DNA of 64,000 nucleotides, taken from NCBI GenBank assembly GCA_028712895.1, contig JAQTPL010000001.1, positions 3,681 to 67,680 of the forward strand, in the 5' to 3' direction. The translations under genes and the position numbers were made by a program. Within the stretch, counting starts at the first letter, position 1. Every line of letters begins with the position of its first letter. The DNA is from a bacterium. Its GTDB lineage: Bacteria > CAYTYR01 > UBA6262. Under the pieces are notes generated by a model. It was not told the DNA's origin. It saw only the letters and a list, made by a program, of their open reading frames with translations, and did no database searches. Below are positions 6,828-59,708 of this stretch, in pieces.

Positions 6828-6836
6828 ATATTAATT

Positions 6837-7882: not shown

Positions 7883-7922
7883 TGATTACTCCTTAATAAT
7901 TATTTTAGGACAGATTTTTTGA

Positions 7923-9683: not shown

Positions 9684-9700
9684 ATAATTAATAATGCTTT

Positions 9701-10561: not shown

Positions 10562-10873
10562 TTAATACTCCTCACCGTTTTTAATTAGCAGATTTAAGTG
10601 GTTTCATTTTTTTACTGCCCCATACACTGTACCTAATTGTATTCTACGCCAAAGTACATCGATATACTTGAAGCCGGCGGATTGCAGTGAAACCCAACGG
10701 GGTCAGCCCTTGAAATGTGAAATGATTCCCATGACTGTCAGTTCCAAACCGTAAACCCTCTGCTGTTAGATTCGTAATTAATTTTGACCCATTTCCCATC
10801 TACGCGGTGTAGAATCTGGGGACATAATACTCATTCTACTTAATTAGTATTGCCTTCCCGGAATTCCCAAGGA

Positions 10874-11590: not shown

Positions 11591-11701
11591 TTGATTCTCC
11601 TTTCTAATTATTTGAAATCATAAATAACGAAAACAACGGGGTCAGCCCTTGAAACTTGAATCCGTAACCCTATTTTCCACTTCGGAAGTGGAAAGACGGT
11701 T

Positions 11702-11953
11702 CTATTCTAGCAGAAGAGCCTTAATCTCCGCAAGTTTCCTTTGATAATCAATTCTATCTTCAACAAAAGGCTTATATGTTTCCGGATCAATCTCCAGTAG
11801 TTCCGTAAATTCACAAATCTTAGGCTTATTATACGAAATAAACTCTTGGTACGATGATGAATGCCAGGAATTAGGATGTTCCACTAAATTTGCCGTGGCT
11901 GGATTTAAATGGATATACCTGGTCAAATGTAAGAGCTGGGCATCTGTCTCCAC
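11702..11953 (-). pseudogene. truncated RAYT/IS200-like transposase (C-terminal 83 aa only)
   Basis: QLLHLTRYIHLNPATANLVEHPNSW...YQRKLAEIKALL aligns at about 50% identity with the C-terminus of the full-length RAYT at 12089..12745. The HuH N-terminal half is absent. Confidence 0.6.
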
Positions 11954-11983
11954 TAAAACATTTTTGAACTTGACCTAATAATT

Positions 11984-12082
11984 GGGGTCAGGGCTAAACT
12001 ATCAACAAAAACTTCCCCCCGTACACCCTATCAGACACTCCTCCACCCCGTAGACCCTTTCAGACACCGCGTAGGTGTCCGG
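11984..12082. repeat. REP-like composite repeat (copy B), inverted relative to copy A with a 42-nt internal duplication
   Basis: This is the reverse complement of 3435-3512, apart from an inserted partial repeat (ccgtacaccctatcagacac...). Confidence 0.7.
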
Positions 12083-12088
12083 AGGGGT

Positions 12089-12745
12089 TCATGATTCTAA
12101 AATAAGATGCTTTATCTGTGCCAGCTCTCTTTGATATCCTACGCGATCTTTTACAAAAGATGTATAATCCTCAGCTTTAATATCAACGACATCTGTAAAT
12201 CTGCAGAATGATTTGCTGTTACTAATGCCAGTATATTCTTGATAAGAAGAATTTATCCACTCTTTTGGATCATTTACGATGAAAGATGTCACCGGATTCA
12301 AATGTACATATCTGGTCAGGTGCAATAATTGAGTGTCATCCTTAACCAGGACATTCTTAAATCTGCTCTCCCATAATGGACCCTTCCGTCCATGTTTTTT
12401 ATTGAAATATTTGGTATAGCTATTTAGAATATTATTCATGAACTTAGAAATACCTTCATCCTTTGTTTGTTTCAATATAAGATGCAGATGTGTAGGCATT
12501 AGACAATAAGCAATTGTTTCAACAGACTCTTCTTCGGCAGAGATTTGATCATTAAGTATTCTCTGCTTAGGCTCGGAGAGTTCTAGGAACTTAGCGAACC
12601 TTATTGCTGGTTTTTCCGCATGATAATAGCGGATCACTTCTATCATTCTGTTAAATTCTTCCTGGTCATTGAAAATCACATACCCGGCAATACTTTTCGT
12701 AAAAACATGGTAAACCTGCCCATTTGCCAGCGCTTCTTTTCTCAT
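12089..12745 (-). CDS. REP-associated tyrosine transposase (RAYT) / IS200-like TnpA
   Basis: The HuH motif is CLMPTHLHLIL and the catalytic Tyr region is LHLTRYVHLNPV. The protein is 218 aa. Confidence 0.8.
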   Translation of the reverse strand: MRKEALANGQVYHVFTKSIAGYVIFNDQEEFNRMIEVIRYYHAEKPAIRFAKFLELSEPKQRILNDQISAEEESVETIAYCLMPTHLHLILKQTKDEGISKFMNNILNSYTKYFNKKHGRKGPLWESRFKNVLVKDDTQLLHLTRYVHLNPVTSFIVNDPKEWINSSYQEYTGISNSKSFCRFTDVVDIKAEDYTSFVKDRVGYQRELAQIKHLILES

Positions 12746-12940
12746 TTATTAGTTTACATCCGCATCTATTATTCTTAAACCCTTTCAGACACCTATCCTC
12801 CACTAAAACGTTGGCGAACTCCCAAGGGTCGCGCGGTGTCTTAAGGGTTAATCTACAAGGTTGACAGTTTGCTATTATGAGCTATCCGGAATTCCCGGAT
12901 AACTCAAAACACCATGTGCAAAAATTGCACATACTTGATT

Positions 12941-13408
12941 TTATAATCTAAAATTAAGTTCTAGTTGCGGATTTTCCTTCTTAACTTCTATCAAGATTTG
13001 CTTCAATAGTTGTATGCCATCTTTAAAAGCCTTATGGCTCTCTTTTTTGCTCACTAATATGCCGGCTTCATAGGTCATTTCGTTTCTTTTCCTGCGCATA
13101 GTCTCGAATTGGTCAGTGATATCTCTGTAACGTTTCCCCAATATGGCACTGGTTATTTCTACCACAGTTCGATGTTGTGCTCCATCATCAGGAACATACC
13201 CGTTGCTCAATAATAAAGCTCTACCTGCCTTGAGCATGGCCATATACGCCATAACATAAGTTGCCCGTTCGGCAATCGGTAATGTCTTTTGCGCTTCCTG
13301 CAAATCCAATATTGATTGTTTCAGTAACGCCTCTATCTGAACTATACCGGCCTTCTGTTTTCTTAATTTTCCTTCCTTAAGCAGCCTTTCTATGAGTTTT
13401 TGCGGCAT
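12941..13408 (-). CDS. HEPN domain protein (partner of the adjacent nucleotidyltransferase)
   Basis: It carries a PF05168-like LKAGRALLLSNGYVPDDGAQH motif. It overlaps the MNT gene by 32 nt. Confidence 0.55.
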   Translation of the reverse strand: MPQKLIERLLKEGKLRKQKAGIVQIEALLKQSILDLQEAQKTLPIAERATYVMAYMAMLKAGRALLLSNGYVPDDGAQHRTVVEITSAILGKRYRDITDQFETMRRKRNEMTYEAGILVSKKESHKAFKDGIQLLKQILIEVKKENPQLELNFRL

Positions 13409-13964
13409 TTACCTCCCCTTTCAGTATTATTATTTTCCCGTTAGTGATCAGGTTAAGAAAACTGCCAGATTTAGCTGTTTCTTTCTTAAATTCGTCTTTA
13501 TCATAATGGGTGAAATTGATTTCGCGACCTATTTTGGATTCTAAATTGCGGACCTTGCGGGTGAATTCGTCCAAGGGGAATTGTCCAACTACTAATAGAT
13601 CTATATCCGAGGATTTATTTTCGTTTTCTTTGGCATATGAGCCATATATGAAAGCCAGGGATATACCTTTATATTTTGCTATTATATTTCTTAATGATCC
13701 CTCTATACCTTCTGTCTTGAAGATTATCTCTTTAATTTCTTTGTATAAAGGGTATTCTTTGCTGAGGGAATAATATTTTGAATTGCCGCGGATGAACGAT
13801 TTGAAAAGGCCTTCTTTTTCCAGCTTATTCAGCTCCCTGGATAAATTACCGGGGTCGTCATTGATAATGGCTGCTATTTCCCGGACATAATAATTCTCAT
13901 CAGGATGGCTAAAGAAATAGGTTAAAACGCTCTTTCTCAATTTGGTGTTGATAAGTATAGACAA
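13377..13964 (-). CDS. nucleotidyltransferase (MNT) with N-terminal wHTH
   Basis: It has the signature GSYAKENENKSSDIDLLVV (GS...DxD) and an N-terminal ArsR-like helix YYVREIAAIINDDPGNLSRELNKLEKEGL. Confidence 0.7.
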   Translation of the reverse strand: MSILINTKLRKSVLTYFFSHPDENYYVREIAAIINDDPGNLSRELNKLEKEGLFKSFIRGNSKYYSLSKEYPLYKEIKEIIFKTEGIEGSLRNIIAKYKGISLAFIYGSYAKENENKSSDIDLLVVGQFPLDEFTRKVRNLESKIGREINFTHYDKDEFKKETAKSGSFLNLITNGKIIILKGEVNAAKTHRKAA

Positions 13965-14159
13965 GCTTATATCCTCATATTGTATTTATTACATCATACG
14001 TTGTAAATAATACAACAGTCATGCTATTTTGTCAAGTTCTTCAGTCGGAAGAAACGGGGTTAGTCCTTGAAACTTGAAACTCTCTCCCCACCCAAAACTA
14101 CCCGCCAAGACCCTCCACCACCCTCCAATAAGCTTTGGCGGGCTAAAGAGCTATGGCGG

Positions 14160-15289: not shown

Positions 15290-16549
15290 CTAATTATTCG
15301 CGGGAAATACGCTTTCGTAGAATTCTCTGGCCCTGGCTTGCTGCTGTTTTGTGCTGGCAGAGATATCCGCCAGGTTATGTTCCAGTACTTTGGCCACATT
15401 GTGGTCCAGCATGCCTTTTTCATCCAGGTTCTTGATAATGGCCATGGCTTCATCCAGGGTCATCCCTGCCCGATAAGGACGGTCCTCGGTCAAAGCGGTG
15501 AAGATGTCGGCTACAGCCATGATCCGCGAGATCATGCTTAATTTATTGGCCCGTAGATGGAACGGGTACCCGGACCCGTCGAGTTTTTCGTGGTGAAACG
15601 CGGCCCATTCAGCGATCTCTTCAAGTCCTTTTACTGTGCAAAGCGTCGTATAGGTGAAATAAGTGTGCTGTTTCATGATGGCAAATTCCTCGGTCGTAAG
15701 CTTATCCTGTTTTTCCAGGATAGTGTTGGGGACCATCAGTTTGCCCAGGTCATGCAGGTTGCCTGTTATTTCCATCAGTTCGATCTCCCATTCAGTCAAA
15801 CCGAAATATTTGGCAATGAGCCCGGCAGAGGTCGAGACCCCGGCTGAATGTGTCGAGGTGAACCTGGACCGGAAATCGATCAAGTTGCGGAATATTTTAG
15901 ATACTTCTTTCAGGTCCGAGAGGTCCAATACAACGCTTCTGTAGGTGGCCTCGCGGTAAAGGAGGGAATATATCCGGGGTGAAGTCACAGTCAGCCAAAA
16001 ATCTTCTCTCTTGGCGATATCTTTGAAAATATCGATTAAGCCAACCTGGATGTCAGTCGCAGCCAGCCGGGAGACTTGCTCGGCAATATTGCGGTCCTGG
16101 TGCAGAATGTATTTGGAGCGGTTGATGCTTCTTTCCACATAGTCTGCCAGGTTCAGTATTTGGGCTTGCGCAGTCAAAGGATTTTCAACTGTTTGTACCC
16201 AGTCCTGCCATTTGTGATGATGCAGCCTGATGATCTTCGCGGCATGCGCGAATACCGGTACGTCTTTGAGCAGGGATTCTCCCAGGATACAATGCGGCTC
16301 GGTCATGATCGTATCAGCCTCATGCAGATTGATCTTTTCTTCGGCAGTCAATGCCCCCACATCATGGATCAGGGCGGCGATCACCAGGTTTTCTATATCT
16401 TCCCTGCCCATACCGGTTTTTCTGGCAAGTTCCCAAGCGATATAGGCGGTCCTGATCTGGTGCTGCACAAGCTCCGGGCTGGCCAAGTCCAGGGCGTCGG
16501 AAAACGACAGGACCAGATTAAATAAATTGATGGATATTCCCCTATACAC
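15290..16549 (-). CDS. HD-GYP domain protein (tandem HD domains; c-di-GMP phosphodiesterase-like)
   Basis: The N-terminal HD is IAALIHDVGAL. The C-terminal HD-GYP is GNLHDLGKLMVP, HHEKLDGSGYP. Confidence 0.75.
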   Translation of the reverse strand: MYRGISINLFNLVLSFSDALDLASPELVQHQIRTAYIAWELARKTGMGREDIENLVIAALIHDVGALTAEEKINLHEADTIMTEPHCILGESLLKDVPVFAHAAKIIRLHHHKWQDWVQTVENPLTAQAQILNLADYVERSINRSKYILHQDRNIAEQVSRLAATDIQVGLIDIFKDIAKREDFWLTVTSPRIYSLLYREATYRSVVLDLSDLKEVSKIFRNLIDFRSRFTSTHSAGVSTSAGLIAKYFGLTEWEIELMEITGNLHDLGKLMVPNTILEKQDKLTTEEFAIMKQHTYFTYTTLCTVKGLEEIAEWAAFHHEKLDGSGYPFHLRANKLSMISRIMAVADIFTALTEDRPYRAGMTLDEAMAIIKNLDEKGMLDHNVAKVLEHNLADISASTKQQQARAREFYESVFPANN

Positions 16550-16966: not shown

Positions 16967-17941
16967 TTAGTCTTTGGCGCCGGCTTTTTCCAGTAATTTA
17001 TCAATTTCGGTATTTCTCTCTTTGGCTGCCACCATCCGTGCCGTCATCCCGGAATTATCCTTGGCGTTTATATCCGCGCCTGCGGCTAGCAGCAGGACCA
17101 CAATATCTTTATGGCCTTTCTGCGCCGCCACCATCAACGCGGTGCCGCTACCGGTATTTTCCTGCGCGTTTACATCAGCACCTTTGTCTATCAGCATCCT
17201 GGCGACATCTTTGTGCCCGTACATGGCCGCGATCATAAGCAGGGTATTCCCGGTATTATCCTTAGCCTTTACATCAGCCTCTTTGCCGATGAGCAGTTCC
17301 GCCATGGCTGAATTGCCCTCTTGTGTCGCTGCCATTAGCGCGGTGAATCCGTTTTGATCACTGGCATTTACGTCTGCCCCGCTGGCTATGAGCATTTCCG
17401 CTATTTCTTTATGGCCGTACATTGCAGCTGACATCAGGGCCGTAGTTCCGGTATTGGTCTTGGCTTTTACGTCAGCCCCTTTGGCAATAAGCAGTTCCAC
17501 TACTTCTTTATGTCCGATAGCCGCGGCTGACATTAGCGCGGAGATCCCGGCGCTCGATTTAACCTTGACGTCAGCGCCTTTGGCGATGAGCAGTCCGGCG
17601 ATATCTTTTTGTCCCGTTGCCGCGGCTGACATTAGCGCGGTGCCGCCTTTATTGCTCTTGGCGTTTACCTGCGCTCCCTTAGCGATGAGCAGTTCCGCTA
17701 TCTCCTTGTGACCCTTTCCCGCAGCCCACATCAATGCAGTGGTTCCGTCGCTGGACTTAGCCTTGACGCTGGCTCCCTGGTCGATCAGGGATTTTACCTG
17801 GGCCAGGTCACCATCCCCGGCTGCCTTTATCAGGGATAGGTTCTCCTGCTCTCCGGCAAATACAGAACCACTGATTATGAGCATGACGAATACAATGGCA
17901 GATATGAACAATTTCCTGGTTTCTCTCACTCTTCCCTCCAT
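16967..17941 (-). CDS. secreted ankyrin-repeat protein (~8 ANK repeats)
   Basis: It has a signal peptide followed by repeats of G.TALM.AA..GH..IAELLIAKGADVNAK. The nucleotide sequence is also tandemly repetitive. Confidence 0.85.
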   Translation of the reverse strand: MEGRVRETRKLFISAIVFVMLIISGSVFAGEQENLSLIKAAGDGDLAQVKSLIDQGASVKAKSSDGTTALMWAAGKGHKEIAELLIAKGAQVNAKSNKGGTALMSAAATGQKDIAGLLIAKGADVKVKSSAGISALMSAAAIGHKEVVELLIAKGADVKAKTNTGTTALMSAAMYGHKEIAEMLIASGADVNASDQNGFTALMAATQEGNSAMAELLIGKEADVKAKDNTGNTLLMIAAMYGHKDVARMLIDKGADVNAQENTGSGTALMVAAQKGHKDIVVLLLAAGADINAKDNSGMTARMVAAKERNTEIDKLLEKAGAKD

Positions 17942-31309: not shown

Positions 31310-31798
31310 TTATGCTTTAGATAGTTCTTCCAATGCTTCCTGGACACTTTCTTTGTGCTTGCGGCTTTCGTATCGGGACAGGATCTTGTAGGCGCAAGGC
31401 ACCACAAACAAGGTCATCAGGGTTGATAATGTCATGCCCCCGATCACCACAATGGCCATGGGGATGCGTGATTCTGAACCAGGACCAATGGCCAGTGCTG
31501 CCGGTATAGCCGCGACGATAGTCGTAATAGCGGTCATCATAATGGGCCGCAGGCGCAGAGGGCACGCATATAACAAGGCCTCGACGACTCCCAGGCCCTT
31601 TTCCCGCTGCTGGGACTGGAACAGCTGTTCCTGCTGTATTTTCAGGTCGCTGTTCTTAGCTGCAGCCAATGATATGCACTGCTCCAGGGTAAGTGGCGCA
31701 GGGTCAGCTGCAAAGGCTGAAGGCAGGATGAATAAGAGACAGAAGCCCAGGTATATGACCAATCTGTGATAAAATATCATATCGTAATTAGGCTCCAT
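31310..31798 (-). pseudogene. in-frame relic fusing an outer-membrane-factor (TolC-like) N-terminus to an RND permease C-terminus
   Basis: Residues 1-60 are a signal peptide plus LTLEQCISLAAAKNSDLKIQQEQL, the start of an OMF. Residues ~75-162 are PLRLRPIMMTAITTIVAAIPAALAIGPGSESRIPMAIVVIGGMTLSTLMTLFVVP, the last TM helices of AcrB-type RND pumps. Confidence 0.55.
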
Positions 31799-32672: not shown

Positions 32673-33308
32673 TTATTTCTTTATTTTTGATTCATCGATG
32701 CTGATCTGGAGCTCAACCCGACGGTTCATCGCGCGGCCTTCTGCCGTATCATTGGAAGCGACAAAATTGGTTGCGCCCATGCCTACCGGCTCGATCGAGG
32801 CTGCTGGTACGCCGCGCGCGATCATGGCTAAACGCACAGCTTGCGCTCTCTGCATAGACAAGCGCTGGTTGAGGTCGCTGCCGCCAACACTGTCAGTATA
32901 ACCGACGACGATTATTTTGTCTTCGGGATACTTTTTGATAATGTCGGAGATCTGGTTCACGCTGTCTACAGCTGCCGGTTTCAGGTCAGCTTTGCCGGAA
33001 TCAAATAAAAGATTGCTCTTCAAAGTTGTGATGATACCGTTTTCAGTCCGTTTGGTTTCAGCGAGTACTTCAAGTTCCTTGGCTTGTTTGTCCAGGTAAT
33101 TGCCAACGCCGCCGCCCAAGAGCGCGCCAGCTGCCGCGCCGATAAGGGCGCCCTGGCCGGTTTTGCCGGATTGGTGGCCGATCACAGCTCCCGCGATGCC
33201 GCCTATGGCGGCGCCGGTGCCTGCCCCGATAGCGGTACGTTTGCCGGGTGTGGTGCAACCTGCGGCAACTAAGGCCAGCAAAAGAAATACTACTAATAGG
33301 TTCTTCAT
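32673..33308 (-). CDS. OmpA-family lipoprotein with glycine-zipper N-domain
   Basis: The lipobox is VAAGC. OmpA-C is FDSGKADLKPAAVDSVNQISDIIKKYPEDKIIVVGYTDSVGGSDLNQRLSMQRA. Confidence 0.8.
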   Translation of the reverse strand: MKNLLVVFLLLALVAAGCTTPGKRTAIGAGTGAAIGGIAGAVIGHQSGKTGQGALIGAAAGALLGGGVGNYLDKQAKELEVLAETKRTENGIITTLKSNLLFDSGKADLKPAAVDSVNQISDIIKKYPEDKIIVVGYTDSVGGSDLNQRLSMQRAQAVRLAMIARGVPAASIEPVGMGATNFVASNDTAEGRAMNRRVELQISIDESKIKK

Positions 33309-36759: not shown

Positions 36760-39700
36760 TTACCAGTTCTTAGCGATGGCCTCTGATAGCAGGGTGAGGT
36801 AGGTAGCAGGCTGGATCTTGTTCTGGTGGCAGATTTCCAGGATCAACTTCTCCTCCACGGTTTGTTGGTAGAATATTTTTTCCTGCAATTCGGATTGGCT
36901 TTTAATCGACGGGTATTTAATATTAGTATCAGTCATCGCCCGGTCCTTGGCATCAATGAGACTGTCGTAAATATCACGTCGTTTAGATTCGCCGGACGGC
37001 AGCTGCGGCGCGATATTTGATCCGCGGCACAGAGTCTTGCGGACGAATCTTGTTTCACCGGAGAATGTCAGTACATGGTACCAGCCTTTTTGCTGGCCGT
37101 TATATTTGAACACATCGCCTTTGAGGCCGATTAAAAGGGCTTGGGCATTCGTGTCAGGCACAGGCTTGATCTCGGCATAAGGCGCATTAATGACGACATA
37201 GCTGTATTCTGCCAGGTCTTCCCTTTCTTCTTCAGCTTTGGCTTTTAGTTCAGCTTCTTTGGCTATCTGTTCTGCTTCTATTTTAGCTTTCAATTCAGCT
37301 GCTGCTTTGGCTTTAGCGTCAGCTTCTTGTTTCATTTTTACTTCACTGGCTTTTCGTTCAGCTGACAGGCGTTCTTTTTCTGCCAGTGCTTTCTGTTCCG
37401 CTTCCTGTTTTTCGAGCTTCGACTTACGCTCAGCTTCCTGCGCTTGCCGCAGGACTTCCTGCTTGGCCCGGCGGTCGAGTTCCTGTTGTGCTTTTTGGGC
37501 TGCTTCTTCGGCTCTGGCTTTTAGTTCTGCTTCTTGGCGGTCTTTCCGTTCTTCAGCTTCACGCAGGATGCGTTCCTGCTCCTGTACTTTTTGCCAGGCA
37601 GACAGCTCATTCATGGTCATTGATTTGGCTGACGATACATCCACGAATCCCATGGCCATGGCTGTGCCGGTAGGTACTTTGATCTCATACCAGTTGTCCC
37701 TGATCCAATTCAGCTTAAAAGCTTCATTTTTTTCAGCTACGTGCAATACGCTAGCCCGAATATCAGGGGCAGTGCGTATCACGGCGTTGTTATCAGATAT
37801 CACGATATATTTATCATTGACATAGGCTTCCATTTTAGCTTTGGCTTCAGCTTCGATCCTGGCTTTGGCCTCGGCTGCTTCTTTGGCTTTGCGTTCAGCT
37901 TCAATAAGGGCTTTTTCTTCAGCTTCCTGTCGGGCTTTCAGTTCTGCCGTGGCTTTGGCTTTAGCCTCAGCTTCCAGTTTCAGTTTTTCTTCACGCGCTT
38001 TCTGTTCCGCTTCCAGCTTGGCGATCAGTTGAGCTTCTTTTAAGGCTTTCTCTTCAGCCTCTTTTTTGATCTTTTCCAGGCGCGCTTCTTCTTGCTGTTG
38101 CCTGAGGGTGGTTAATTCCGTGCTTGAGAGGACTTTGACGACTGTGTTGTGAATATAGGCAGAGCCGGTATTCAGGGCTATTTCATACCATTCCTTGCCC
38201 CTGGAGATGATCTTGAAGCTCTGGCCAGGTTGGGCTTTCTGCACTATTTCGGCAGTCTTGCCGGCAGTTTTCCTGATATTAGTATCCTTAGATTGTACGA
38301 ATACGTATTTGTCTTTGAGCCACTCTTCTTCAGCGGCTCTTTCAGCTTCGAGCTTCAACTTGCGCTCAGCTTCCTCTCGGGCTTTCAGTTCAGCAGCTGC
38401 CCGGAGCTGGCGGGCTTTTTCCTCATTTTCTTTTTGCTGCGCCAGTCGGTATTCATTAAGCTCCTGTTCAGTCATCAATTTAACCAGGGTAGATAAGACA
38501 TAGGCTGTCATTGTAGCTGTACCTTTAGGAACGGCAATCTGGTACCAGGGAACATTTTGCTTATTCGGGGCGATCCAGGTTACTTTAAGAGAGACATCAT
38601 TGTTCGCTTTGGCGATAATAGTTGCTGTTTGTTGTGGTGCCTCTCTAAGATTGGTATTTGCCAGGGTGGTCAGTATATATTTATCTTTTACATAATCTTC
38701 CATTCTGGCTTTTTCTTCGGCTGCTTGCTTTTCGAGCTTCGACTTACGCTCAGCTTCCTCATGGGCTTTCAGTTCAGCGGCTGCCCGGGCCAGCCGTTCT
38801 TTTTCTTCTTTGGCTTTCCTGGCAGTTTCTTCCCTGGCTATCCGCTCTGTTTCCTGTCGCTCTTTGGCCTCGGTTTCAAGACGGGCCTTCTCTGCCGCAG
38901 CTTTCTGCTGGGCTGAACGGTATTCATTAAGTTCCTGTATTGTCATTAATTTGGTCACGGTAGAAGATACATATGCCGGTATGGTCGCAGTACCTGACGG
39001 GATCGCTACCTGGTACCAGGGCACATTTTGCTTATCTGGGGTGATCCAGGTTACTTTCAGGGAAACATCGATTTTTGCTTTGGCTATGATCGCAGAGTTT
39101 TTATCCGGTGCCAGCCGGCAATTAGTATTATCCAGGGTAGTGAGGATATATTTATCTTGGACATAATCTTCCATTCTGGCTTTTTCTTCGGCTTCCTGCT
39201 TTTCGAGCTTCGACTTACGCTCAGCTTCCTCGCGGACTTTCAGTTCAGCGGCTGCCCGGTCAGCTTCCTGCCTGGCTCTAGATTCAGCTTCCTCACGGAG
39301 CTTTAGTTCTTCGGCCGCGCGGAGCTTGCGAGCTTTTTCCTCAGTTGCTTTTTGCTGCGCCAGGCGGTAGTCATTAAGCTGCTTCTTGGTGAGTAATTTA
39401 GCTAATGTGGAAATGATGTATCCTTCCACTGTTTGCGTACCAGAGGATAAACTCACTTGGTACCACGGCACATTGAGCCGGTCTTTGATTATCCAGGTGA
39501 CTTTGAATGATTCACCGCCGGCTACCTTCGTGAGCGGCGGCGCGTTTTCATCCGGAGCTGTCCTGACGTTTGTATTATCGACCATGGCCAGGGCATATTT
39601 ATCGGCGATAAAGGCCTTTGTTTTAGCATCGTCTTTGGCCTGTTGCCTGGCCTGCAGTTCCGCCGCTGCTTTAGCTTTCGCTTCGGCTTCCTGGCGCGCT

Positions 39701-42700
39701 TTCAGTTCTTTTGCCGCCCGGAGTTCACTTGCTTTGCGCTCTGCTTCTTCAGCGGCTGTTTTTTCCGCTGCAGTGATGATTTTGGTAACTCCGGCATGGA
39801 CAAAGACTGTACCTGAGGAAGTGCTGATTTCGTACCAGTCCCTCGTGCGTGAGTTTAGTTTGTAGGTTGTCCCAAGCTTGGCTTTTTCTAAGATCGCGGC
39901 ATTCTTGCTGGCTGACTTGCGCAAATTTGTATTATCAATAGTGATCAGGACATACTGTTCCGGCGCCGGGATTGGCGGTACGGGAATCCTGGCCAGGAGC
40001 AAAGCATCGAGTTCTTCCTTGGTGATCGGTTTGGCCAGCGATGAATGAACATAGGCTTTTATGCTTTGTTTACCAGAGGGGACATCGACCTGATACCAGG
40101 AATTCTTGCCTTCATTGTTTTCAATCCAGGTAAGCTTGTAATAATCCCCGGCTTTGGACCGGGTAATGATTGGTGATGATGTTGACGGGGCTGACCTGAG
40201 ATTGGCATTTTCCGCCTGGATCAGTATGTATTTATCCTGGACCTGGGATTCTATTTTGGCTTTGGCTGCAGCTTCTTTTTTGGCTTTTTCTTCCGCTGCC
40301 AAAGATGCTTTCAGTTCCAATTCTTCCTTAGCTTTGCGCTCAGCTTCCAGTTTAGCCTGTTGTTTAGCTTCCAGCCTGGCTTTTTTCTCAGCTTCTTCTT
40401 TTAGTTTTTCCTGGCGGCGCAATTCCTGCTGTAGGCGATAGTCGTTGAGTTCCTGTCCCGTCATCAGTTTGACCTGTTTGATGGGGACAAAGACCGTACC
40501 TGAAGACGTATCCACGCCGTACCATTCCGCGGTCCTGGTCACGATCTTGAAACTGGTGTCAGGCAGCGCCGTGCCGCTAACAAGAGCATTTTTATTCGGC
40601 GCCGGATAAACGCTGGTTTGCTTATTAACTAATATATATTTATCTTTGAGCCAGGCAATTTCCCGGGCTTTGCGTTCTTCTTCTTCCTTGGCTTTTAAGG
40701 CTGCTGCTTCTTTGCCCCGCAGGTCAGCTTCAGCCCGGAGTAGTTTTTCCCTTTCCAGTTTGGCTATGCGGGCTGCTTCCAGGCGGGTTTTCTCTGCTTC
40801 AGCTGCCCTGCGCTCAGCTTCCTCCTGTTTAGCCAGTTCTTCAGCTGCGCGTTGTTTGCGCAAAAGTGCCGCGCGCTCTTTCCTGATCCCTGATTCAACG
40901 TCAGCCTCGGTAAGTATGTCAACCAAGCCTCTATGGATGAAAGCGTTCTGGTCCGGAGGCAGGAATATCTCGTACCAGTCCTGGTTCCTGGATAGCAGCT
41001 TGAAAATATCAGCTCTTTTTGCGTTGGCCAATATATTTGCAGTGAGCTTCGGTTCAGCGCGCAGGTTGGCATTGGTAGATTTAACCGCTACATATTTATC
41101 TTTGCAAAAGGCTTCATCAATAGCTTTAGCTTCTGCTTCCTGGCGCGTTTTTAGTTCTTCTGCTTCACGTTTCTTCTGTACTGCTTCTTCGCGGGCCTTT
41201 TTAGCCGCTTCTTCTTTAGCCAGCTGTTCAGCTTCGCGTTTGGCTTTAGCTTCTGCTTCCAGGCGTTCTTTTTCTGCGGCGGCTTTTCTTTCAGCAGCCC
41301 GCTTTGCTTCCAAGTCATTAGCCGTGATGACATCAGCCAGGCTACTGGCTATAAAAGCGGTGCCGGAAGACAAACTGATCTCGTACCAGTCTTTGGCCCG
41401 GGAAACAAGCTTGAAAGATTCGCCATTCCTGGTTTTATTTATGATCGTCGCAGTTTTGTTAGGAGACTTGCGCAAGTTTATATTATTCTTGTTTATAATG
41501 ACATATTTATCAGCCAGCCATTCTTCTTCCCGGGCTTTAGCTTCATTTTCCTGTTTTTCGAGCTTCGATTTACGCTCAGCTTCCTCACGGACTTTTAATT
41601 CGGCCGCTTCCCTGGCCCGCTGGTCAGCAGCTTCTTTAATCCTGCGTTCATTTTCCTGCCTGGCTTTTAATTCTTTTTCTTTACGAGCTTTCTCTTCAGC
41701 AGCTTTTTGTTTTTGCTCAGCTAAACCGGTTTCGCTGAGTATTGTGCCCAGGTTATGATTGATAAAAGCTGTGCCGCTGGAGAAATTGATCTCATACCAA
41801 TCTGCCCGGCGCGAAACCAGCTTAAATGAATCACCGATATTGACCGTAGCAAGGATCTTGCCCTTGATATTCGGCACATTTTGCAGGACTGCTTTCCTGA
41901 CGTTGATGAGCACATATTTATCTTTGAGCCATTCTGCTTCCTGGGCTTTGATAGCGGCTTCCCGCTTAGCGGCATCTTCTTTGATCTTTCTTTCATTTTC
42001 CTGCTTTAATTTTAATTCTTCTTCTTTGCGGGCTTTTTCTTCCGCAGCTTTCTTTTCGAGTCGCAGTTTACGTTCCGCTGCCTGGCGCTCCTGTTTCAGC
42101 TGCGCCAATTTATTAGGACCAGCCAGGACATCAGCTTCGGTGATGATCTCCGCCAGGCTGGAGGCTATAAAGCCATTCTGTTCCGGCGGCAAGAATATTT
42201 CATACCAGTTATTCTGGCGTGCCAGTAATTTATAGGTGTTGTCTTTATTGGCCCGGTCCAGGATGCGGCTGTTCTTGTCCGGAGCTTCGCGCAGGTTGAC
42301 CATATTGGCAGTGACCAATACATATTTATCCTTGATCCAGGCGTCTTTTTCAGGTTCAGCCAGAACCTTTGTTTCCACTGCCAGGACCGGTAATGCCGGT
42401 GGAGCAGGCTGCGGCGCTAGCTGGGGTTCAACATCAGGCTTTTCGTTTTTCATCGGCTGGGCTAACTTGTCTGAGATAAAAGCCGTGCCAGAAGACGTGA
42501 GCACTTCATACCAGTCCTTAAAGACCCAGACCAGCTTAAAAACAGTCCCCTGTACCGCAGTAGTGATCACCTTGGATGTGTCATTGGCTTTAGTATATAA
42601 CTTTGCCGACTTTGCCGTCACGGCAACAGTATTCACTTTAAATTGTTTGGCGGATCTGGTAGCTTCATTGATCGCTGCTGTCAGTTCAGTTTCTTTAACG

Positions 42701-43542
42701 ATCTTTACTACTTTGGCCAGGACGAACGCATGCCGCTTGTCAGGAAGTAAGACCGTACACCAATCGCTTTCCTGGGAAAGTATACGGTAATGATCACCTG
42801 GTTTAGCAGTGACCATGATCTTGGCGGTAATATTTGGTTCTTGCCGCAGGATAATATCGTTCTTCATAGCTACAGCATATTGGGCTGCTGCTGGCTGAGG
42901 TTGAGGAGCTGTTTTAGGAGGAATGGCTGCTTTGCGCTGTGCTTTATGCTTTGCCAGCTGGGCCGGCGTGATGATCTTGGCTGCACTCACCGGGACATAA
43001 CTGATCTTATTATTGGGTAAAACTATTTCATACCAGGAACCGGAAACCTTCCGGCTTAATTTGAAGGCATTGTTGATTTTAGCCTGCGCGATGACCGGAC
43101 CGTTTGTTTTTGGGGTTTTGCGGATATATGAACCAGAACTGGTAATAAGCACATAGTCTTTTTCCTGCTCTATTGCCGTTGGCGCAGGTTTTGGTACAAG
43201 GATCTTGCCGCTTTTAGATTTATCCAGTTTTTTGACGCGGGCGTACTTTTTAGACAGGTACCCTTCTTTATTGGCAGAGAGTTCAATGAGGTACCAGTCT
43301 GGCAATTCTCTGAGGACTTTAAAGATCTCGCCTTTGAAAGCGATCTCGGAGATCTTGGCTTCCGGATCCGGGGCTGCCCTGACCTCAGCTTTTTTGATCT
43401 CAACAATGACATGGCCAGGCGCAGCTTGGTCAGGTTTGCGTTGGGCAGACCAAAGGGAGGTACAGAGCAAAGCGGCTACGCTGAGGGTGAGAAAAAAATA
43501 AAATATCTTGATGATACAAGTCTTATTTTTTGTCATATTCAT
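36760..43542 (-). CDS. giant secreted repeat protein (2260 aa): ~17 SH3b-like domains separated by Glu/Lys/Ala/Arg-rich coiled-coil linkers
   Basis: It has a signal peptide. The unit KY(V/I)L...N(L/I)R.AP....I.....G..FKL.....DWYEI....G.AFI is repeated. Linkers resemble EAERKSKLEKQ. Near-identical 31-nt DNA repeats occur at about 37408, 38728, 39200 and 41555. Confidence 0.85.
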   Translation of the reverse strand: MNMTKNKTCIIKIFYFFLTLSVAALLCTSLWSAQRKPDQAAPGHVIVEIKKAEVRAAPDPEAKISEIAFKGEIFKVLRELPDWYLIELSANKEGYLSKKYARVKKLDKSKSGKILVPKPAPTAIEQEKDYVLITSSGSYIRKTPKTNGPVIAQAKINNAFKLSRKVSGSWYEIVLPNNKISYVPVSAAKIITPAQLAKHKAQRKAAIPPKTAPQPQPAAAQYAVAMKNDIILRQEPNITAKIMVTAKPGDHYRILSQESDWCTVLLPDKRHAFVLAKVVKIVKETELTAAINEATRSAKQFKVNTVAVTAKSAKLYTKANDTSKVITTAVQGTVFKLVWVFKDWYEVLTSSGTAFISDKLAQPMKNEKPDVEPQLAPQPAPPALPVLAVETKVLAEPEKDAWIKDKYVLVTANMVNLREAPDKNSRILDRANKDNTYKLLARQNNWYEIFLPPEQNGFIASSLAEIITEADVLAGPNKLAQLKQERQAAERKLRLEKKAAEEKARKEEELKLKQENERKIKEDAAKREAAIKAQEAEWLKDKYVLINVRKAVLQNVPNIKGKILATVNIGDSFKLVSRRADWYEINFSSGTAFINHNLGTILSETGLAEQKQKAAEEKARKEKELKARQENERRIKEAADQRAREAAELKVREEAERKSKLEKQENEAKAREEEWLADKYVIINKNNINLRKSPNKTATIINKTRNGESFKLVSRAKDWYEISLSSGTAFIASSLADVITANDLEAKRAAERKAAAEKERLEAEAKAKREAEQLAKEEAAKKAREEAVQKKREAEELKTRQEAEAKAIDEAFCKDKYVAVKSTNANLRAEPKLTANILANAKRADIFKLLSRNQDWYEIFLPPDQNAFIHRGLVDILTEADVESGIRKERAALLRKQRAAEELAKQEEAERRAAEAEKTRLEAARIAKLEREKLLRAEADLRGKEAAALKAKEEEERKAREIAWLKDKYILVNKQTSVYPAPNKNALVSGTALPDTSFKIVTRTAEWYGVDTSSGTVFVPIKQVKLMTGQELNDYRLQQELRRQEKLKEEAEKKARLEAKQQAKLEAERKAKEELELKASLAAEEKAKKEAAAKAKIESQVQDKYILIQAENANLRSAPSTSSPIITRSKAGDYYKLTWIENNEGKNSWYQVDVPSGKQSIKAYVHSSLAKPITKEELDALLLARIPVPPIPAPEQYVLITIDNTNLRKSASKNAAILEKAKLGTTYKLNSRTRDWYEISTSSGTVFVHAGVTKIITAAEKTAAEEAERKASELRAAKELKARQEAEAKAKAAAELQARQQAKDDAKTKAFIADKYALAMVDNTNVRTAPDENAPPLTKVAGGESFKVTWIIKDRLNVPWYQVSLSSGTQTVEGYIISTLAKLLTKKQLNDYRLAQQKATEEKARKLRAAEELKLREEAESRARQEADRAAAELKVREEAERKSKLEKQEAEEKARMEDYVQDKYILTTLDNTNCRLAPDKNSAIIAKAKIDVSLKVTWITPDKQNVPWYQVAIPSGTATIPAYVSSTVTKLMTIQELNEYRSAQQKAAAEKARLETEAKERQETERIAREETARKAKEEKERLARAAAELKAHEEAERKSKLEKQAAEEKARMEDYVKDKYILTTLANTNLREAPQQTATIIAKANNDVSLKVTWIAPNKQNVPWYQIAVPKGTATMTAYVLSTLVKLMTEQELNEYRLAQQKENEEKARQLRAAAELKAREEAERKLKLEAERAAEEEWLKDKYVFVQSKDTNIRKTAGKTAEIVQKAQPGQSFKIISRGKEWYEIALNTGSAYIHNTVVKVLSSTELTTLRQQQEEARLEKIKKEAEEKALKEAQLIAKLEAEQKAREEKLKLEAEAKAKATAELKARQEAEEKALIEAERKAKEAAEAKARIEAEAKAKMEAYVNDKYIVISDNNAVIRTAPDIRASVLHVAEKNEAFKLNWIRDNWYEIKVPTGTAMAMGFVDVSSAKSMTMNELSAWQKVQEQERILREAEERKDRQEAELKARAEEAAQKAQQELDRRAKQEVLRQAQEAERKSKLEKQEAEQKALAEKERLSAERKASEVKMKQEADAKAKAAAELKAKIEAEQIAKEAELKAKAEEEREDLAEYSYVVINAPYAEIKPVPDTNAQALLIGLKGDVFKYNGQQKGWYHVLTFSGETRFVRKTLCRGSNIAPQLPSGESKRRDIYDSLIDAKDRAMTDTNIKYPSIKSQSELQEKIFYQQTVEEKLILEICHQNKIQPATYLTLLSEAIAKNW

Positions 43543-43599
43543 CCCTGTAGAGTTAATATTTTATTCTACACAAATTCCTGATTTAAGTCAATGAAAAAT

Positions 43600-43629
43600 A
43601 AAAAAACCCGCCAAGTTTAAATTGGCGGG
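43600..43629 (-). terminator. intrinsic terminator
   Basis: On the minus strand, cccgccaatttaaacttggcggg is followed by ttttttattttt. Confidence 0.7.
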
Positions 43630-43653
43630 TTAAGGTGATCATTTGCTGAGCGA

Positions 43654-43746
43654 TTATCCTTCCCTTTTTTTTAGCTCTTTATCTATAAATAACATTGCGG
43701 CATTGATCTGTGCGTTGATCGCATCTTGCATCTTCTTGCTGATCAT
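43654..43746 (-). CDS. candidate 30-aa small ORF with strong SD, followed by its own terminator
   Basis: On the minus strand, GGAGG lies 5 nt before the ATG. It encodes MISKKMQDAINAQINAAMLFIDKELKKREG. A terminator follows 20 nt downstream. Confidence 0.3.
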   Translation of the reverse strand: MISKKMQDAINAQINAAMLFIDKELKKREG

Positions 43747-43819: not shown

Positions 43820-44347
43820 TTACCGGTAATTGATACATTGTAAAGGCAAAGCAAAATCAAGACCATGCAGGTACTGTATGACCGCCTGTAGTTCATCTTT
43901 TTTAGCGCTGGACACTCTCAGTTTTTCGCCTTCGATCTGGACCTGGACTTTGACATTGAGTTTTTTGATCAGCTGGACCAGTTCTTTGGCTTTTTCTTTT
44001 TCCAGGCCGACAGCGATATTAGCCAGCTGCCTGATAGTTCCGCCAAGGGCTGTTTCTTCAGGTTTATAGGCCAGGGCTTTCGGCGAGATCTTCCGGGAAA
44101 CGAAACGGTTGGATAATATTTCCTTGAGAGCGCGGAGTTTGTAAGCGTCATCAGCAGTCAAGGTAATGGTTTTTTCAGTTTTGTTTAATTCTATTCCAGC
44201 TTTAGAGTTTTTAAAGTCATAGCGCTGGGAGATTTCCTTGAGCGCCTGGTTAACTGCATTATCGACTTCCTGCAGGTCAACCTGCGAAACTACGTCAAAA
44301 GAAAAAGTAGAGGCCACTAGTATCTCCTTTTTTTGGGTTTTGATCAA
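43820..44347 (-). CDS. yajQ: YajQ family (UPF0234) nucleotide/c-di-GMP-binding protein
   Basis: STFSFDVVSQVDLQEVDNAVNQALKEISQRYDFK is the typical YajQ N-terminus. The true start is probably internal. Confidence 0.75.
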   Translation of the reverse strand: MIKTQKKEILVASTFSFDVVSQVDLQEVDNAVNQALKEISQRYDFKNSKAGIELNKTEKTITLTADDAYKLRALKEILSNRFVSRKISPKALAYKPEETALGGTIRQLANIAVGLEKEKAKELVQLIKKLNVKVQVQIEGEKLRVSSAKKDELQAVIQYLHGLDFALPLQCINYR

Positions 44348-59102: not shown

Positions 59103-59708
59103 TTATGGTTTTACCTTTGGCCTGGTGACCAGTTTCTTGATCTTCTTCTGGCCGATCCAGACTTTTTCATTGGTGAGAATATTGATCATTTCCAGTTCTA
59201 CCTGGTAATACATGACCGCTTGTTTGCCGGCTGCATCCATGATAGTATTGATCTGCCCCTGCAGCATAAAATCAGCGCCCTTTTCCTTACCCATAGCTTT
59301 AATCGTGGCCGGGTCTGCAAAGTCAGCCTGGTCCATCTTTTCTTCGCGGACTTCGGTGCGTGGTTCCCTGGCAACGACGAATTTCACTTTGCCGGAATTG
59401 AGCAGTTCCCTTTCCAGGTCTTTGACAAAGGTTTCAGTATTAATGTGCTCGCTGGACCGGTTCCGCACTGTACCGACTATTACTGTCGGTGGCTTGCCCT
59501 GTGTAGAACGGAATTCACTGACCCATGGACGGCTGAGTGAATCATTGATCATCTCTGCTGATACTAGCTGGGAATCAGTATCATTCCAATTACCGCTCAA
59601 GTCGATCATTTCACCGGAGTCGACTCTTTCCACTTTCGTTCCGCCGCAACCAGCTAACAGGCTCAAGGCCAGCATAAAAAATACTATTCCTACCATATAC
59701 TTTTTCAT
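59103..59708 (-). CDS. lpoB: LpoB-like penicillin-binding-protein activator lipoprotein
   Basis: The lipobox is LLAGCGG. LSGNWNDTDSQLVSAEMIN...TVIVGTVRNRS...VVAREPRTEV matches the LpoB/YcfM pattern. Confidence 0.6.
   Translation of the reverse strand: MKKYMVGIVFFMLALSLLAGCGGTKVERVDSGEMIDLSGNWNDTDSQLVSAEMINDSLSRPWVSEFRSTQGKPPTVIVGTVRNRSSEHINTETFVKDLERELLNSGKVKFVVAREPRTEVREEKMDQADFADPATIKAMGKEKGADFMLQGQINTIMDAAGKQAVMYYQVELEMINILTNEKVWIGQKKIKKLVTRPKVKP

What the first reader, a model, noticed from the sequence alone, without database searches (positions are those of the whole stretch)
36760..43542. Giant 2260-aa secreted protein made of ~17 SH3b-like modules alternating with charged coiled-coil linkers, with near-identical DNA repeats
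Seen in sequence:
- A single 6.8-kb ORF has a signal peptide and a periodic architecture.
- Each period has a ~60-aa SH3b-like unit (KYVL...NLR.AP....I.....G..FKL.....DWYEI....G.AFI).
- Each is followed by a 40-70-aa Glu/Lys/Ala/Arg-rich linker (EAERKSKLEKQ, AEEKARKEEELK...).
- 31-nt segments are repeated almost exactly at about 37408, 38728, 39200 and 41555 (minus-strand coding), so the gene is prone to slipped recombination and copy-number variation.

Inference:
- This is a fibrous surface protein (adhesin, S-layer-associated protein or molecular ruler).
- Such giant genes are a hallmark of some uncultivated lineages.
- The long internal repeats also risk assembly collapse.
Basis: seen in the sequence. 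Interest (0 to 1): 0.6.

Follow-up and report, generated by a model that had tools for sequence, protein, structure and literature searches.

The report
SH3b domain rod with helical spacers
This is a real 2,258-2,260-residue exported protein of an uncultivated Elusimicrobia-like bacterium: 17 cell-wall-binding (SH3b) domains are strung on stiff single alpha-helices whose lengths change between species almost only by whole helical turns, which points to a rigid multivalent envelope rod, not a coiled-coil adhesin.

Summary
The ORF at 36760-43542(-) encodes one N-terminal hydrophobic signal segment, 17 SH3b units (Pfam SH3_3, E=5.7e-105) and 11 charged linkers of 44-128 aa. The 31-nt box sits at 37409, 38729, 39200 and 41555.

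It is not an assembly artefact. Three independent assemblies of this species give the same 17 modules, and one differs by 1 nt in 6,783.

The interpretation needs correcting.
- The linkers are ER/K single alpha-helices, not coiled coils.
- The repeats are old (SH3 units 30% identical on average; longest exact DNA repeat 35 nt), so this is not a Periscope-type hypervariable gene.
- No surface-sorting or S-layer domain is present, and the window carries diderm markers. A periplasmic, peptidoglycan-associated location is therefore the default.

New findings:
- The family occurs in only 4 of 185,579 species representatives, with 15-20 modules in the complete proteins.
- The best-conserved part is the last SH3b plus an 84-aa three-helix tail. 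The same pair also exists as a widespread small secreted protein, and the tail matches no Pfam, NCBIfam or PDB entry.
- Linker lengths are quantised at 3.65 residues, while the linker DNA repeats every 8 codons. Selection therefore appears to fix the rotational register of successive SH3b domains.

The function (a rigid multivalent peptidoglycan-binding rod) is inferred.

The parts
36760..43542 (-). Whole CDS: 2260 aa from the first ATG. The likely true start is M3 at 43536, giving 2258 aa.
43563..43591 (-). Sigma-70-like promoter TTGACT-17-TAGAAT (10 of 12 matches), just upstream of the gene.
43605..43631 (-). Intrinsic-terminator-like hairpin (10-bp stem plus T-run). It closes the upstream yajQ/ferritin-remnant unit, so the gene has its own transcription start.
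43444..43542 (-). N-terminal Sec-type signal segment (aa 1-33): basic n-region, 19-22-aa hydrophobic core, conserved LWSA/LISA motif. Whether it is cleaved or stays as an anchor is not resolved.
42448..43443 (-). SH3b units 1-4 (aa 34-365), joined by short Lys/Pro-rich linkers without helices. Unit 1 is the best-conserved internal unit (60-93% identity to orthologues).
42355..42447 (-). Pro-rich non-helical spacer (aa 366-396).
37231..42354 (-). Array of SH3b units 5-16 with the 11 ER/K helices.
SH3b units: 42139-42354, 41734-41946, 41323-41535, 40909-41124, 40459-40668, 40021-40260, 39772-39981, 39388-39627, 38941-39180, 38470-38709, 38125-38337, 37615-37839.
Helices: 41947-42138, 41536-41733, 41125-41322, 40669-40908, 40261-40458, 39628-39771, 39181-39387, 38710-38940, 38338-38469, 37840-38124, 37231-37614.
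37015..37230 (-). Terminal SH3b unit 17 (aa 2105-2176), part of the most conserved module.
36763..37014 (-). 84-aa C-terminal three-helix tail domain, consensus ..AEDRA..EA..KYP...Y...L.DKYKLE..H...IQP..Y..L..EG..KNW. It matches no Pfam, NCBIfam or PDB entry.
37409..37439 (+). 31-nt box, copy 1 (exact); encodes EAERKSKLEK in linker 16-17.
38729..38759 (+). 31-nt box, copy 2 (exact); linker 13-14.
39200..39230 (+). 31-nt box, copy 3 (exact); linker 12-13.
41555..41585 (+). 31-nt box, copy 4 (1 mismatch); linker 6-7.
38447..39259 (-). The only recent internal duplication: modules 13 and 14. Two 342-nt copies (38918-39259 and 38447-38788) align over 345 columns at 80% DNA identity; the SH3 units are 70% identical. 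Unit 14 is absent from orthologue P0012.

Best explanation
The gene encodes a Sec-exported, roughly 251-kDa rod-like envelope protein.

Shown by analysis of the sequence, its orthologues and structure predictions:
- It has an N-terminal signal segment.
- A membrane-proximal cluster of four SH3b domains follows, then twelve SH3b domains.
- Eleven of the junctions from unit 5 onward are each a continuous ER/K single alpha-helix of 44-128 residues, about 7-19 nm each and about 120 nm in total.
- It ends in a highly conserved head made of a 17th SH3b plus a new three-helix tail.
- The helices are not coiled coils.
- Their lengths, within the protein and across five homologous proteins, fall on a 3.65-residue lattice.

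Inferred:
- The helices are rigid enough to transmit rotational register, and selection keeps every SH3b domain at a fixed azimuth to its neighbours.
- The mostly basic SH3b domains (pI about 9-10) bind the cell's own peptidoglycan, as SH3b domains of cell-wall enzymes do.
- In this probably diderm organism the protein therefore lies in the periplasm along the sacculus. There it would act as a multivalent tie-rod or spacer with binding sites at fixed distance and orientation.
- The conserved terminal module is the ancestral functional unit, and the array grew in front of it.
For: Domain identity:
- SH3_3 at E=5.7e-105 and related families.

Linkers are single alpha-helices:
- Composition, neutral net charge, salt-bridge excess z 1.7-4.5, and no a/d seam.
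- No hydrophobic power at 3.5-3.67 residues; charge period about 7.7-8 with z about 5.
- AlphaFold2 gives one unbroken helix, residues 62-143, at pLDDT 74-90.

Length lattice:
- Differences between orthologous linkers peak at 3.65 residues in a blind 2.5-12 periodogram (mean cosine 0.68). 0 of 5000 jittered sets reach this.
- The 32 distinct absolute lengths give R=0.54 at 3.65 (P=0.0036 for the periodogram maximum). Without the one linker that carries a Gly-Pro break, R=0.73 and P<2e-4.
- 44 of 51 linkers lie within 0.2 turn of one common phase. All six proteins share that phase, and a seventh partial sequence also fits.
- Non-helical linkers show nothing at 3.6 (R=0.06).
- Linker DNA is self-similar at 8, 16 and 24 codons, not at 7, 11, 18 or 22. 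The observed differences are 7, 11, 18, 22 and 29 and never 8, 16 or 24. Mutational bias therefore does not explain the lattice.

Export and envelope:
- Only one hydrophobic segment, at the N-terminus.
- OmpA/Gly-zipper and LpoB lipoprotein genes lie in the window.

Conservation and reality of the gene:
- The terminal module is 64-83% identical between orthologues, against 33-59% for the whole protein.
- The tail profile finds 46 cluster representatives; most of those examined are 110-320-aa proteins carrying one SH3b plus the tail, usually behind a signal peptide.
- Three concordant assemblies.
Against: - No experiment or localisation predictor was available, so periplasmic location and peptidoglycan binding are inferences from domain family and envelope markers.
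- One related genome is labelled 'Clostridia' in its record, so the diderm assumption rests on few markers.
- The lattice rests on six proteins from about five species, and orthologues are not independent samples.
- The first charged linker, the last one and a few others are off-phase.
- AlphaFold2 confidence for the SH3 domains in the two-module model was low (mean pLDDT 58), and no coordinates were available to measure the inter-domain angle.
- At roughly 170-190 nm contour length the rod far exceeds a typical periplasmic width. It could fit only lying parallel to the wall.
Confidence: 0.55

Rival explanations
1. Cell-surface fibril or adhesin. The protein crosses the outer membrane or is released. 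It projects from the cell on its helical stalk and binds external ligands or other cells through the SH3b domains or the terminal head.
For: - Large size and rod-like build.
- Fast divergence: 48% identity where the neighbouring GlmM is 92%, and 33% where GlmM is 83%.
- Gain and loss of modules between species.
- A conserved distal head.
- A comparable giant protein of Apilactobacillus, with beta-domain beads, a long single helix and a C-terminal SH3b-like domain, is extracellular (PMC12863079).
Against: - No secretion or sorting domain of any known outer-membrane or cell-wall pathway.
- No dedicated transporter gene in the conserved neighbourhood, which is glmM-yajQ-gene.
- The closest structural matches of the SH3b units are cell-wall-binding domains.
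- A fixed azimuth for every internal domain is not needed for a simple stalk.
Confidence: 0.2
2. Self-assembling lattice or filament. Copies of the rod pack side by side through SH3b-SH3b or SH3b-tail contacts and form an envelope sheet or cable. The phase lock would then serve protein-protein register, not peptidoglycan binding.
For: - A fixed azimuth and a common phase in all modules are what lateral in-register packing needs.
- Both ends are conserved and the middle is variable.
Against: - Charged helices without a hydrophobic face offer no obvious packing surface.
- Module number and linker lengths differ between species with no partner that must co-vary.
- No evidence for oligomerisation could be obtained here.
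Confidence: 0.15
3. Dimeric or trimeric coiled-coil rod, as the finding's title states. Whole-turn indels would then preserve a hydrophobic seam.
For: - Standard coiled-coil predictors usually score such charged helices highly (own knowledge, not run here).
- Indels of 7, 11 and 18 residues are also typical of coiled coils.
Against: - Hydrophobic residues make up only 6-16% of the linkers.
- The best heptad a/d occupancy is 0.08-0.33, no better than shuffles.
- Hydrophobic and hydrophobic-plus-Ala spectra are below random at 3.5, 3.6 and 3.67 residues.
- The length lattice fits 3.65 and not 3.5: mean cosine 0.68 against 0.09.
Confidence: 0.08
4. Assembly chimera or collapsed repeat array, so that the ORF does not exist as written.
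For: One of three assemblies of this species breaks inside the gene. It yields three fragments and one probable frameshift.
Against: - An independent assembly (GCA_028719005.1) has the same 6,783-nt gene with 1 mismatch.
- The three fragments of the third assembly are colinear and cover 2,253 of the 2,258 residues.
- The last 1,107 aa of the 3,051-aa homologue were re-found, identical, on a separate metagenome contig.
- The longest exact repeat is 35 nt.
Confidence: 0.02

Closest known systems
SH3b cell-wall-binding domains (Pfam SH3_3/SH3_4; lysostaphin, phage endolysins, YkfC/NlpC-P60 and EntFM/CwpFM peptidases)
   Different: There is no catalytic domain at all. It has 17 copies instead of 1-4. 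Most copies are separated by long rigid helices instead of short loops.
ER/K single alpha-helix (SAH) domains, e.g. in myosin VI and X levers (PMC5378345)
   Same: Charged E/K/R/A composition, i/i+4 salt-bridge pattern, no hydrophobic seam, and a predicted long isolated helix.
   Different: Eleven SAH segments are used in series as spacers between identical-type binding domains in an exported bacterial protein. Their lengths are locked to the helical repeat. I found no report of this in five text searches.
TolA domain II
   Same: An N-terminal membrane segment followed by a long Ala/Lys/Glu-rich helix in the periplasm. NCBIfam tolA_full matches the linkers at 49.4 bits.
   Different: The match is below the 59.45-bit cut-off and is compositional. 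There is no TolA C-terminal domain, and no tolQR genes appear in the gene lists of the orthologous loci.
Periscope proteins (SasG, Rib, Sgo_0707; PMC8201768)
   Same: An elongated array whose module number differs between relatives, with a conserved distal domain.
   Different: Periscope stalks are near-identical tandem DNA repeats that vary between strains. Here the units are 30% identical on average, the best DNA repeat is 80% over 345 nt, and three assemblies of one species have the same count.
Giant5 of Apilactobacillus kunkeei (PMC12863079)
   Same: Beta-domain beads, a very long predicted single alpha-helix and an SH3b-like wall-binding domain at the C-terminus.
   Different: Giant5 has one roughly 2,000-aa helix after nine beta-sheet domains and belongs to a Gram-positive organism. 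Here helices and SH3b domains alternate. No sequence relationship was found.
Coiled-coil sensor-effector linkers with periodic length preferences (e.g. phytochrome-diguanylate cyclases, PMC9587094)
   Same: That paper treats the relation between the length of a helical (coiled-coil) linker and coupling of the two domains it joins (abstract). That such linker lengths follow the heptad repeat is my own knowledge.
   Different: Those are short dimeric coiled coils (heptad period, own knowledge) that transmit a signal. Here monomer-type helices of up to 128 residues show a 3.65 period, in a structural array.

Membership tests
Bacterial SH3 (SH3b; Pfam PF08239 SH3_3) | Profile match above the gathering score | tested here: met
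   343.9 bits against a cut-off of 27, in 16 stretches. 17 units with an own HMM.
Bacterial SH3 (SH3b) | SH3-like beta-barrel fold resembling wall-binding domains | tested here: met
Bacterial SH3 (SH3b) | Binds peptidoglycan | not testable with these tools
   Needs a pull-down with purified sacculi.
ER/K single alpha-helix (SAH) | High E/K/R content with an excess of i/i+3 and i/i+4 opposite charges, at near-zero net charge | tested here: met
   46-58% charged, net -1 to +4, z 1.7-4.5 against shuffles. Charge period about 8, z about 5.
ER/K single alpha-helix (SAH) | No hydrophobic seam | tested here: met
   Hydrophobic spectra z -0.4 to -1.7 at 3.5-3.67 residues; a/d occupancy no better than shuffles.
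ER/K single alpha-helix (SAH) | Monomeric stable helix in solution | not testable with these tools
   There is only the AF2 prediction of one continuous 82-residue helix.
Coiled coil | Heptad or hendecad hydrophobic periodicity | tested here: not met
Periscope proteins | Long, highly identical tandem repeats at the DNA level | tested here: not met
   Longest exact repeat 35 nt; best long repeat 80% over 345 nt. Units 30% identical on average.
Periscope proteins | Repeat number varies between close strains | tested here: not met
   17 modules in all three assemblies of the species. The number varies only between species: 15, 15, 17 and 20.
TolA | Match to tolA_full above its cut-off, including the C-terminal domain | tested here: not met
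   49.4 bits against a cut-off of 59.45, over the linkers only.
YgiM-type 'SH3 and anchor' proteins (TIGR04211) | Signal peptide, one SH3 and a C-terminal transmembrane anchor | tested here: not met
   No NCBIfam hit. No C-terminal hydrophobic segment. JGI labels one small relative 'YgiM (DUF1202 family)'.
S-layer, autotransporter, RTX, T9SS or sortase surface proteins | SLH, beta-barrel translocator, RTX repeats, T9SS C-terminal domain or LPXTG signal | tested here: not met
   None among the Pfam or NCBIfam hits. The C-terminus is a soluble three-helix domain.
SH3b-bearing cell-wall hydrolases (NlpC/P60, EntFM/CwpFM) | A catalytic domain | tested here: not met
   EntFM scores 116 bits against a cut-off of 720, on SH3 units only. 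No NLPC_P60 or other enzyme domain.
Unnamed 'SH3b + three-helix tail' secreted proteins (defined here) | One SH3b directly followed by the AEDRA...KYP...KNW tail | tested here: met
   The tail profile finds 46 representatives at E<=1e-3. A 25-sequence alignment shows shared motifs. SH3_3 lies upstream of the tail in the small proteins.

The most novel reading that the evidence does not exclude
The ER/K helices are rigid, phase-locked spacers. Evolution accepts insertions and deletions only in whole alpha-helical turns and rejects the mutationally favoured 8-residue steps. All SH3b domains along a rod of roughly 170-190 nm therefore keep one rotational register. That would make this a new kind of bacterial envelope element: a registered multivalent tie-rod or ruler that reads, or imposes, spacing on the peptidoglycan layer. 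It would also be the first comparative evidence that single alpha-helices transmit orientation, not only distance, between domains.
Probability: 0.35. Interest if true: 0.8.

Novelty: new variant of a known kind. Interest (0 to 1): 0.6.

Why it matters
Single alpha-helices are usually treated as semi-flexible spacers or constant-force springs that set distance. A lattice of linker lengths at the helical repeat, conserved over proteins only 33% identical, would mean they also set angle.

That is testable with a few recombinant fragments, and it is useful for protein engineering with ER/K linkers.

For envelope biology it offers a candidate for a long, regularly spaced peptidoglycan-binding element in a poorly known phylum. 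It also defines a widespread, unannotated 'SH3b + tail' secreted protein family whose function is open.

Tried and rejected
- RNA structure for the conserved 31-nt box: four copies folded, z -0.9 to +0.5, nothing.
- Identity of the tail domain:
  - no Pfam hit;
  - no NCBIfam hit;
  - nothing below E=0.1 in PDB sequence-profile searches with 4 and then 25 sequences;
  - the afdb50 fold library was not available.
- Gene neighbourhoods of two small SH3b+tail proteins: a two-component system plus serpin, and a type III CRISPR locus. Neither is informative.
- Metagenome scan for more orthologues: it returned only a second copy of the P0016 C-terminus.
- Word-indexed search with a profile of 11 internal units: only one 139-aa protein, so it did not widen the family.
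- Three large proteins in the tail search (P0020, P0040, P0053): unrelated repeat proteins of the F5/8, RTX and cadherin types.
- Mutational explanation of the length lattice: tested and rejected, because the DNA self-similarity is at 8, 16 and 24 codons.
- Lipoprotein reading of Cys27: rejected, because the Cys is absent from the orthologues.

Full report
**1. The observation**

The ORF is there as described: 36760..43542 on the minus strand, 2260 aa from the first ATG. GenBank annotators start two codons later (2258 aa, 'SH3 domain-containing protein', MDD5258392.1). That start has the better Shine-Dalgarno spacing.

The gene has its own transcription signals. A sigma-70-like promoter, TTGACT-17-TAGAAT, lies at 43591-43563. 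A strong terminator hairpin lies just upstream at 43631-43605.

Only one segment is hydrophobic enough for a membrane or signal helix. It is aa 9-27, with a Kyte-Doolittle mean of 2.27; everything else stays below 1.3.

Pfam gives SH3_3 at E=5.7e-105 in 16 stretches, plus SH3_4, SH3_YKFC_2nd and SH3_16. An HMM built from the units finds 17.

The 31-nt box is exact at 37409, 38729 and 39200 and has one mismatch at 41555. None is expected by chance.

**2. The gene is real**

A separate assembly (GCA_028719005.1, a 23-kb contig) carries the same 6,783-nt gene with a single mismatch.

A third assembly of the species broke inside the gene. Its three fragments are colinear and cover 2,253 of the 2,258 residues, with the same modules.

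The repeats are too diverged to collapse.
- The longest exact direct repeat is 35 nt.
- The longest diverged repeat is 345 nt at 80% identity.
- The 17 SH3 units average 30% pairwise identity, and adjacent units 36%.
- Only units 13 and 14 (70% identical) look recent.

**3. The family**

The whole-protein search found five homologues plus the protein itself.
- Complete proteins: 1906, 2153 and 3051 aa.
- Contig-truncated proteins: 1860 and 1483 aa.
- Identity to the window protein: 33-59%.

A scan of one genome for each of 185,579 species found four loci. Two are labelled Elusimicrobia, one 'bacterium' and one 'uncultured Clostridia'. The metagenome scan added only a duplicate.

The complete proteins have 15, 15, 17 and 20 SH3b units.

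Units can be matched one to one between the closer orthologues. Whole SH3b-plus-linker modules have been gained or lost.

The order glmM-yajQ-gene is conserved in the three species whose loci were read. Downstream genes differ.

The protein diverges much faster than its neighbour. GlmM is 92% and 83% identical where the large protein is 48% and 33%.

**4. Anatomy**

After the signal segment come four SH3b units joined by short Lys/Pro-rich linkers. A Pro-rich spacer follows. Then come 13 units with 11 charged linkers of 44-128 aa between them. Junction 10-11 is short and non-helical.

SH3b units are mostly basic: pI is 8.8-10 for 13 of the 17 (8.1 for unit 8, about 6.8 for units 5, 16 and 17). 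The linkers are electrically neutral. The mature protein is about 251 kDa with pI 9.3.

At 0.15 nm per residue the helices would measure 6.6-19 nm each and about 120 nm together. The SH3 domains and N-terminal linkers would bring the contour length to very roughly 170-190 nm (own estimate).

**5. The linkers are single alpha-helices, not coiled coils**

- They hold 46-58% D/E/K/R, 18-35% Ala and only 6-16% large hydrophobic residues.
- Opposite charges at i/i+3 and i/i+4 are enriched over shuffles (z 1.7-4.5).
- The best heptad a/d hydrophobic occupancy is 0.08-0.33, no better than shuffles.
- Fourier spectra show no hydrophobic or hydrophobic-plus-Ala power at 3.5, 3.6 or 3.67 residues (z -0.4 to -1.7).
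- Acidic and basic residues alternate with a period of about 7.7-8 (z about 5). That is the E4K4-like pattern of ER/K helices.
- AlphaFold2 on the unit 6-linker-unit 7 segment, with five orthologues aligned, predicts one unbroken helix from residue 62 to 143 at pLDDT 74-90. The helix abuts the next SH3b. The SH3 parts of that model are of low confidence.

The TolA match in NCBIfam (49.4 bits, cut-off 59.45) is a compositional echo of the same helix type.

**6. Linker lengths sit on the helical repeat**

An alignment of one orthologous linker showed indels of 4, 7, 11 and 29 residues. This prompted a systematic test. As a measure I took the distance from the invariant Trp of one SH3b to the invariant Trp, or the first Tyr, of the next.

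(a) Differences between orthologues. There are 33 pairwise differences from nine linker positions. A blind periodogram from 2.5 to 12 residues peaks at 3.65 (mean cosine 0.68; 0.62 at 3.6; 0.09 at 3.5). None of 5000 sets in which every length was jittered by up to 5 residues reached that maximum at any period. The commonest differences are 11, 18, 22 and 29 residues, which are 3, 5, 6 and 8 turns.

(b) Absolute lengths. The 32 distinct W-to-Y lengths from all six proteins again peak at 3.65 (R=0.54, P=0.0036 for the maximum). Leaving out the first charged linker, which contains a Gly-Pro break, gives R=0.73 and P<2e-4.

(c) A common phase. 44 of 51 linkers lie within 0.2 turn of one phase. Each protein on its own has the same mean phase, including the 33%-identical P0016 (R=0.89). 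A partial seventh sequence that was not used before also fits.

(d) Control. The non-helical linkers show nothing at 3.6 (R=0.06; mean cosine -0.16).

(e) Mutational bias. The SH3 part of the measure is constant between orthologues: 39, 38 or 44 residues from Tyr to Trp. Linker DNA and protein are self-similar at lags of 8, 16 and 24 codons (z 3.4 at lag 8), and not at 7, 11, 18 or 22. Slippage should therefore make 8-residue steps. Not one difference of 8, 16 or 24 is seen.

Since there is no hydrophobic seam to keep in register, the simplest reading is this. The helices are stiff, and the rotation of each SH3b relative to its neighbours is under selection. This is an inference from six related sequences and needs more data.

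**7. The conserved head**

The last SH3b and the 84-aa tail are 64-83% identical among orthologues, well above the rest of the protein. AlphaFold2 (mean pLDDT 75) gives an SH3 barrel followed by three helices.

A profile of the tail, run against 1.84 billion representative proteins, finds 46 hits at E<=1e-3. Most of those examined are 110-320 aa long and carry one SH3b and the tail, usually behind a signal peptide. A few have the tail alone.

Sources name these proteins only 'SH3 domain-containing' or 'YgiM (DUF1202 family)'.

The tail has a clear consensus: AEDRA..EA..KYP...Y...L.DKYKLE..H...IQP..Y..L..EG..KNW. It has no match in Pfam, NCBIfam or PDB sequences.

The large protein thus looks like a small 'SH3b + tail' protein that acquired a long array in front of it.

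**8. Location and function (inferred)**

The window encodes an OmpA-family protein with a glycine zipper (32673-33308), an LpoB-type lipoprotein (59103-59708) and an AcrB fragment. Two relatives are labelled Elusimicrobia, a Gram-negative phylum (own knowledge).

No domain of any known outer-membrane secretion or wall-sorting pathway is present, and the C-terminus is a soluble helical domain. After Sec export the default location is therefore the periplasm.

My best explanation is a multivalent peptidoglycan-binding rod lying along the sacculus, with binding sites at fixed spacing and orientation. Surface display, self-assembly into a lattice and a true coiled coil remain as rivals in that order. 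An assembly artefact is essentially excluded.

**9. Comparison with known systems**

The closest known things are:
- SH3b wall-binding domains;
- ER/K helices of myosins (PMC5378345);
- TolA domain II;
- Periscope proteins (PMC8201768);
- Giant5 of Apilactobacillus (PMC12863079);
- coiled-coil sensor linkers whose length matters for coupling sensor to effector (PMC9587094).

The protein fails the defining tests for TolA, Periscope proteins, YgiM-type anchors, S-layer or secreted adhesins, and wall hydrolases. The membership table gives the details.

Five text searches found no description of an SH3b array on single alpha-helices or of helical-turn quantisation in such linkers. The library is incomplete, so this is not proof of novelty.

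**10. Verdict**

It is wrong on the coiled coil, on repeat instability and probably on surface display.

The protein is a new variant of known parts. The phase-locked spacers and the unannotated tail family are the points worth following up.

Noticed in passing
window 37409-37439, 38729-38759, 39200-39230, 41555-41585; also L003 at 9030 and L006 at 8619 and 9912: The 31-nt box encoding EAERKSKLEK keeps the same minor codons (GAG, CGT, TCG, CTC) in all four copies while its flanks diverge. It recurs with 1-3 mismatches in other species. Independent origin has a probability of about 2e-6, and no RNA structure was found. Gene conversion or selection at the nucleotide level remains unexplained.
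   Followed up: partly
window 43654-43746 (-): A 30-codon ORF between yajQ and the large gene is a ferritin remnant. Its first 16 and last 16 residues match residues 1-16 and 149-164 of the intact 164-aa ferritin at the same place in L003. This points to an in-frame internal deletion.
   Followed up: yes
window about 3600-14000: A low-GC stretch (30-38% against about 47%) holds defence and mobile-element genes: a RelA/SpoT-like nucleotidyltransferase, a GmrSD-N protein, an SDH-type ClpP-like protease, a C5 cytosine methylase, an IS200-like Y1 transposase and a Pol-beta nucleotidyltransferase. It is probably an acquired island.
   Followed up: partly
window 31310-31798 (-): A 162-aa ORF matches only the last 80 positions of the 1021-position AcrB profile. 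It is a truncated RND pump gene or pseudogene.
   Followed up: no
window 16967-17941 (-): A 324-aa protein made almost entirely of ankyrin repeats (E about 1e-65), which is uncommon in free-living bacteria.
   Followed up: no
L002 19181-19540; L003 210-629 and 13371-14309; window 15290-16549 and 43820-44347: Genes linked to cyclic-di-GMP signalling recur near the large gene. They are PilZ (L002, L003), a response-regulator GGDEF directly downstream in L003, an HD_5/HDOD protein in the window, and the conserved neighbour YajQ. This may be coincidence.
   Followed up: no
P0021-P0062; alignment A5: A family of small proteins carries one SH3b plus an 80-90-aa three-helix tail, usually behind a signal peptide. 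It has 46 cluster representatives; one member is labelled Acidobacteriota and another comes from a marine metagenome. The tail is absent from Pfam, NCBIfam and PDB and could be defined as a new domain family.
   Followed up: partly
P0086/P0088 (third assembly of the species), corresponding to window about 38470-38490: In one MAG the gene is split into two adjacent ORFs at ...AYVLST / KLMTEQE(R)NEY, with an L-to-R change. This is a probable frameshift or sequencing error. The same MAG also has a contig break at aa 1089-1093.
   Followed up: partly
Non-helical linkers of all six proteins: The lengths of the Pro-rich, non-helical linkers show a weak periodicity near 5.6-5.75 residues (P=0.02 for differences, 0.14 for absolute lengths). 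It may reflect PQ/PE-type short repeats, or chance.
   Followed up: no
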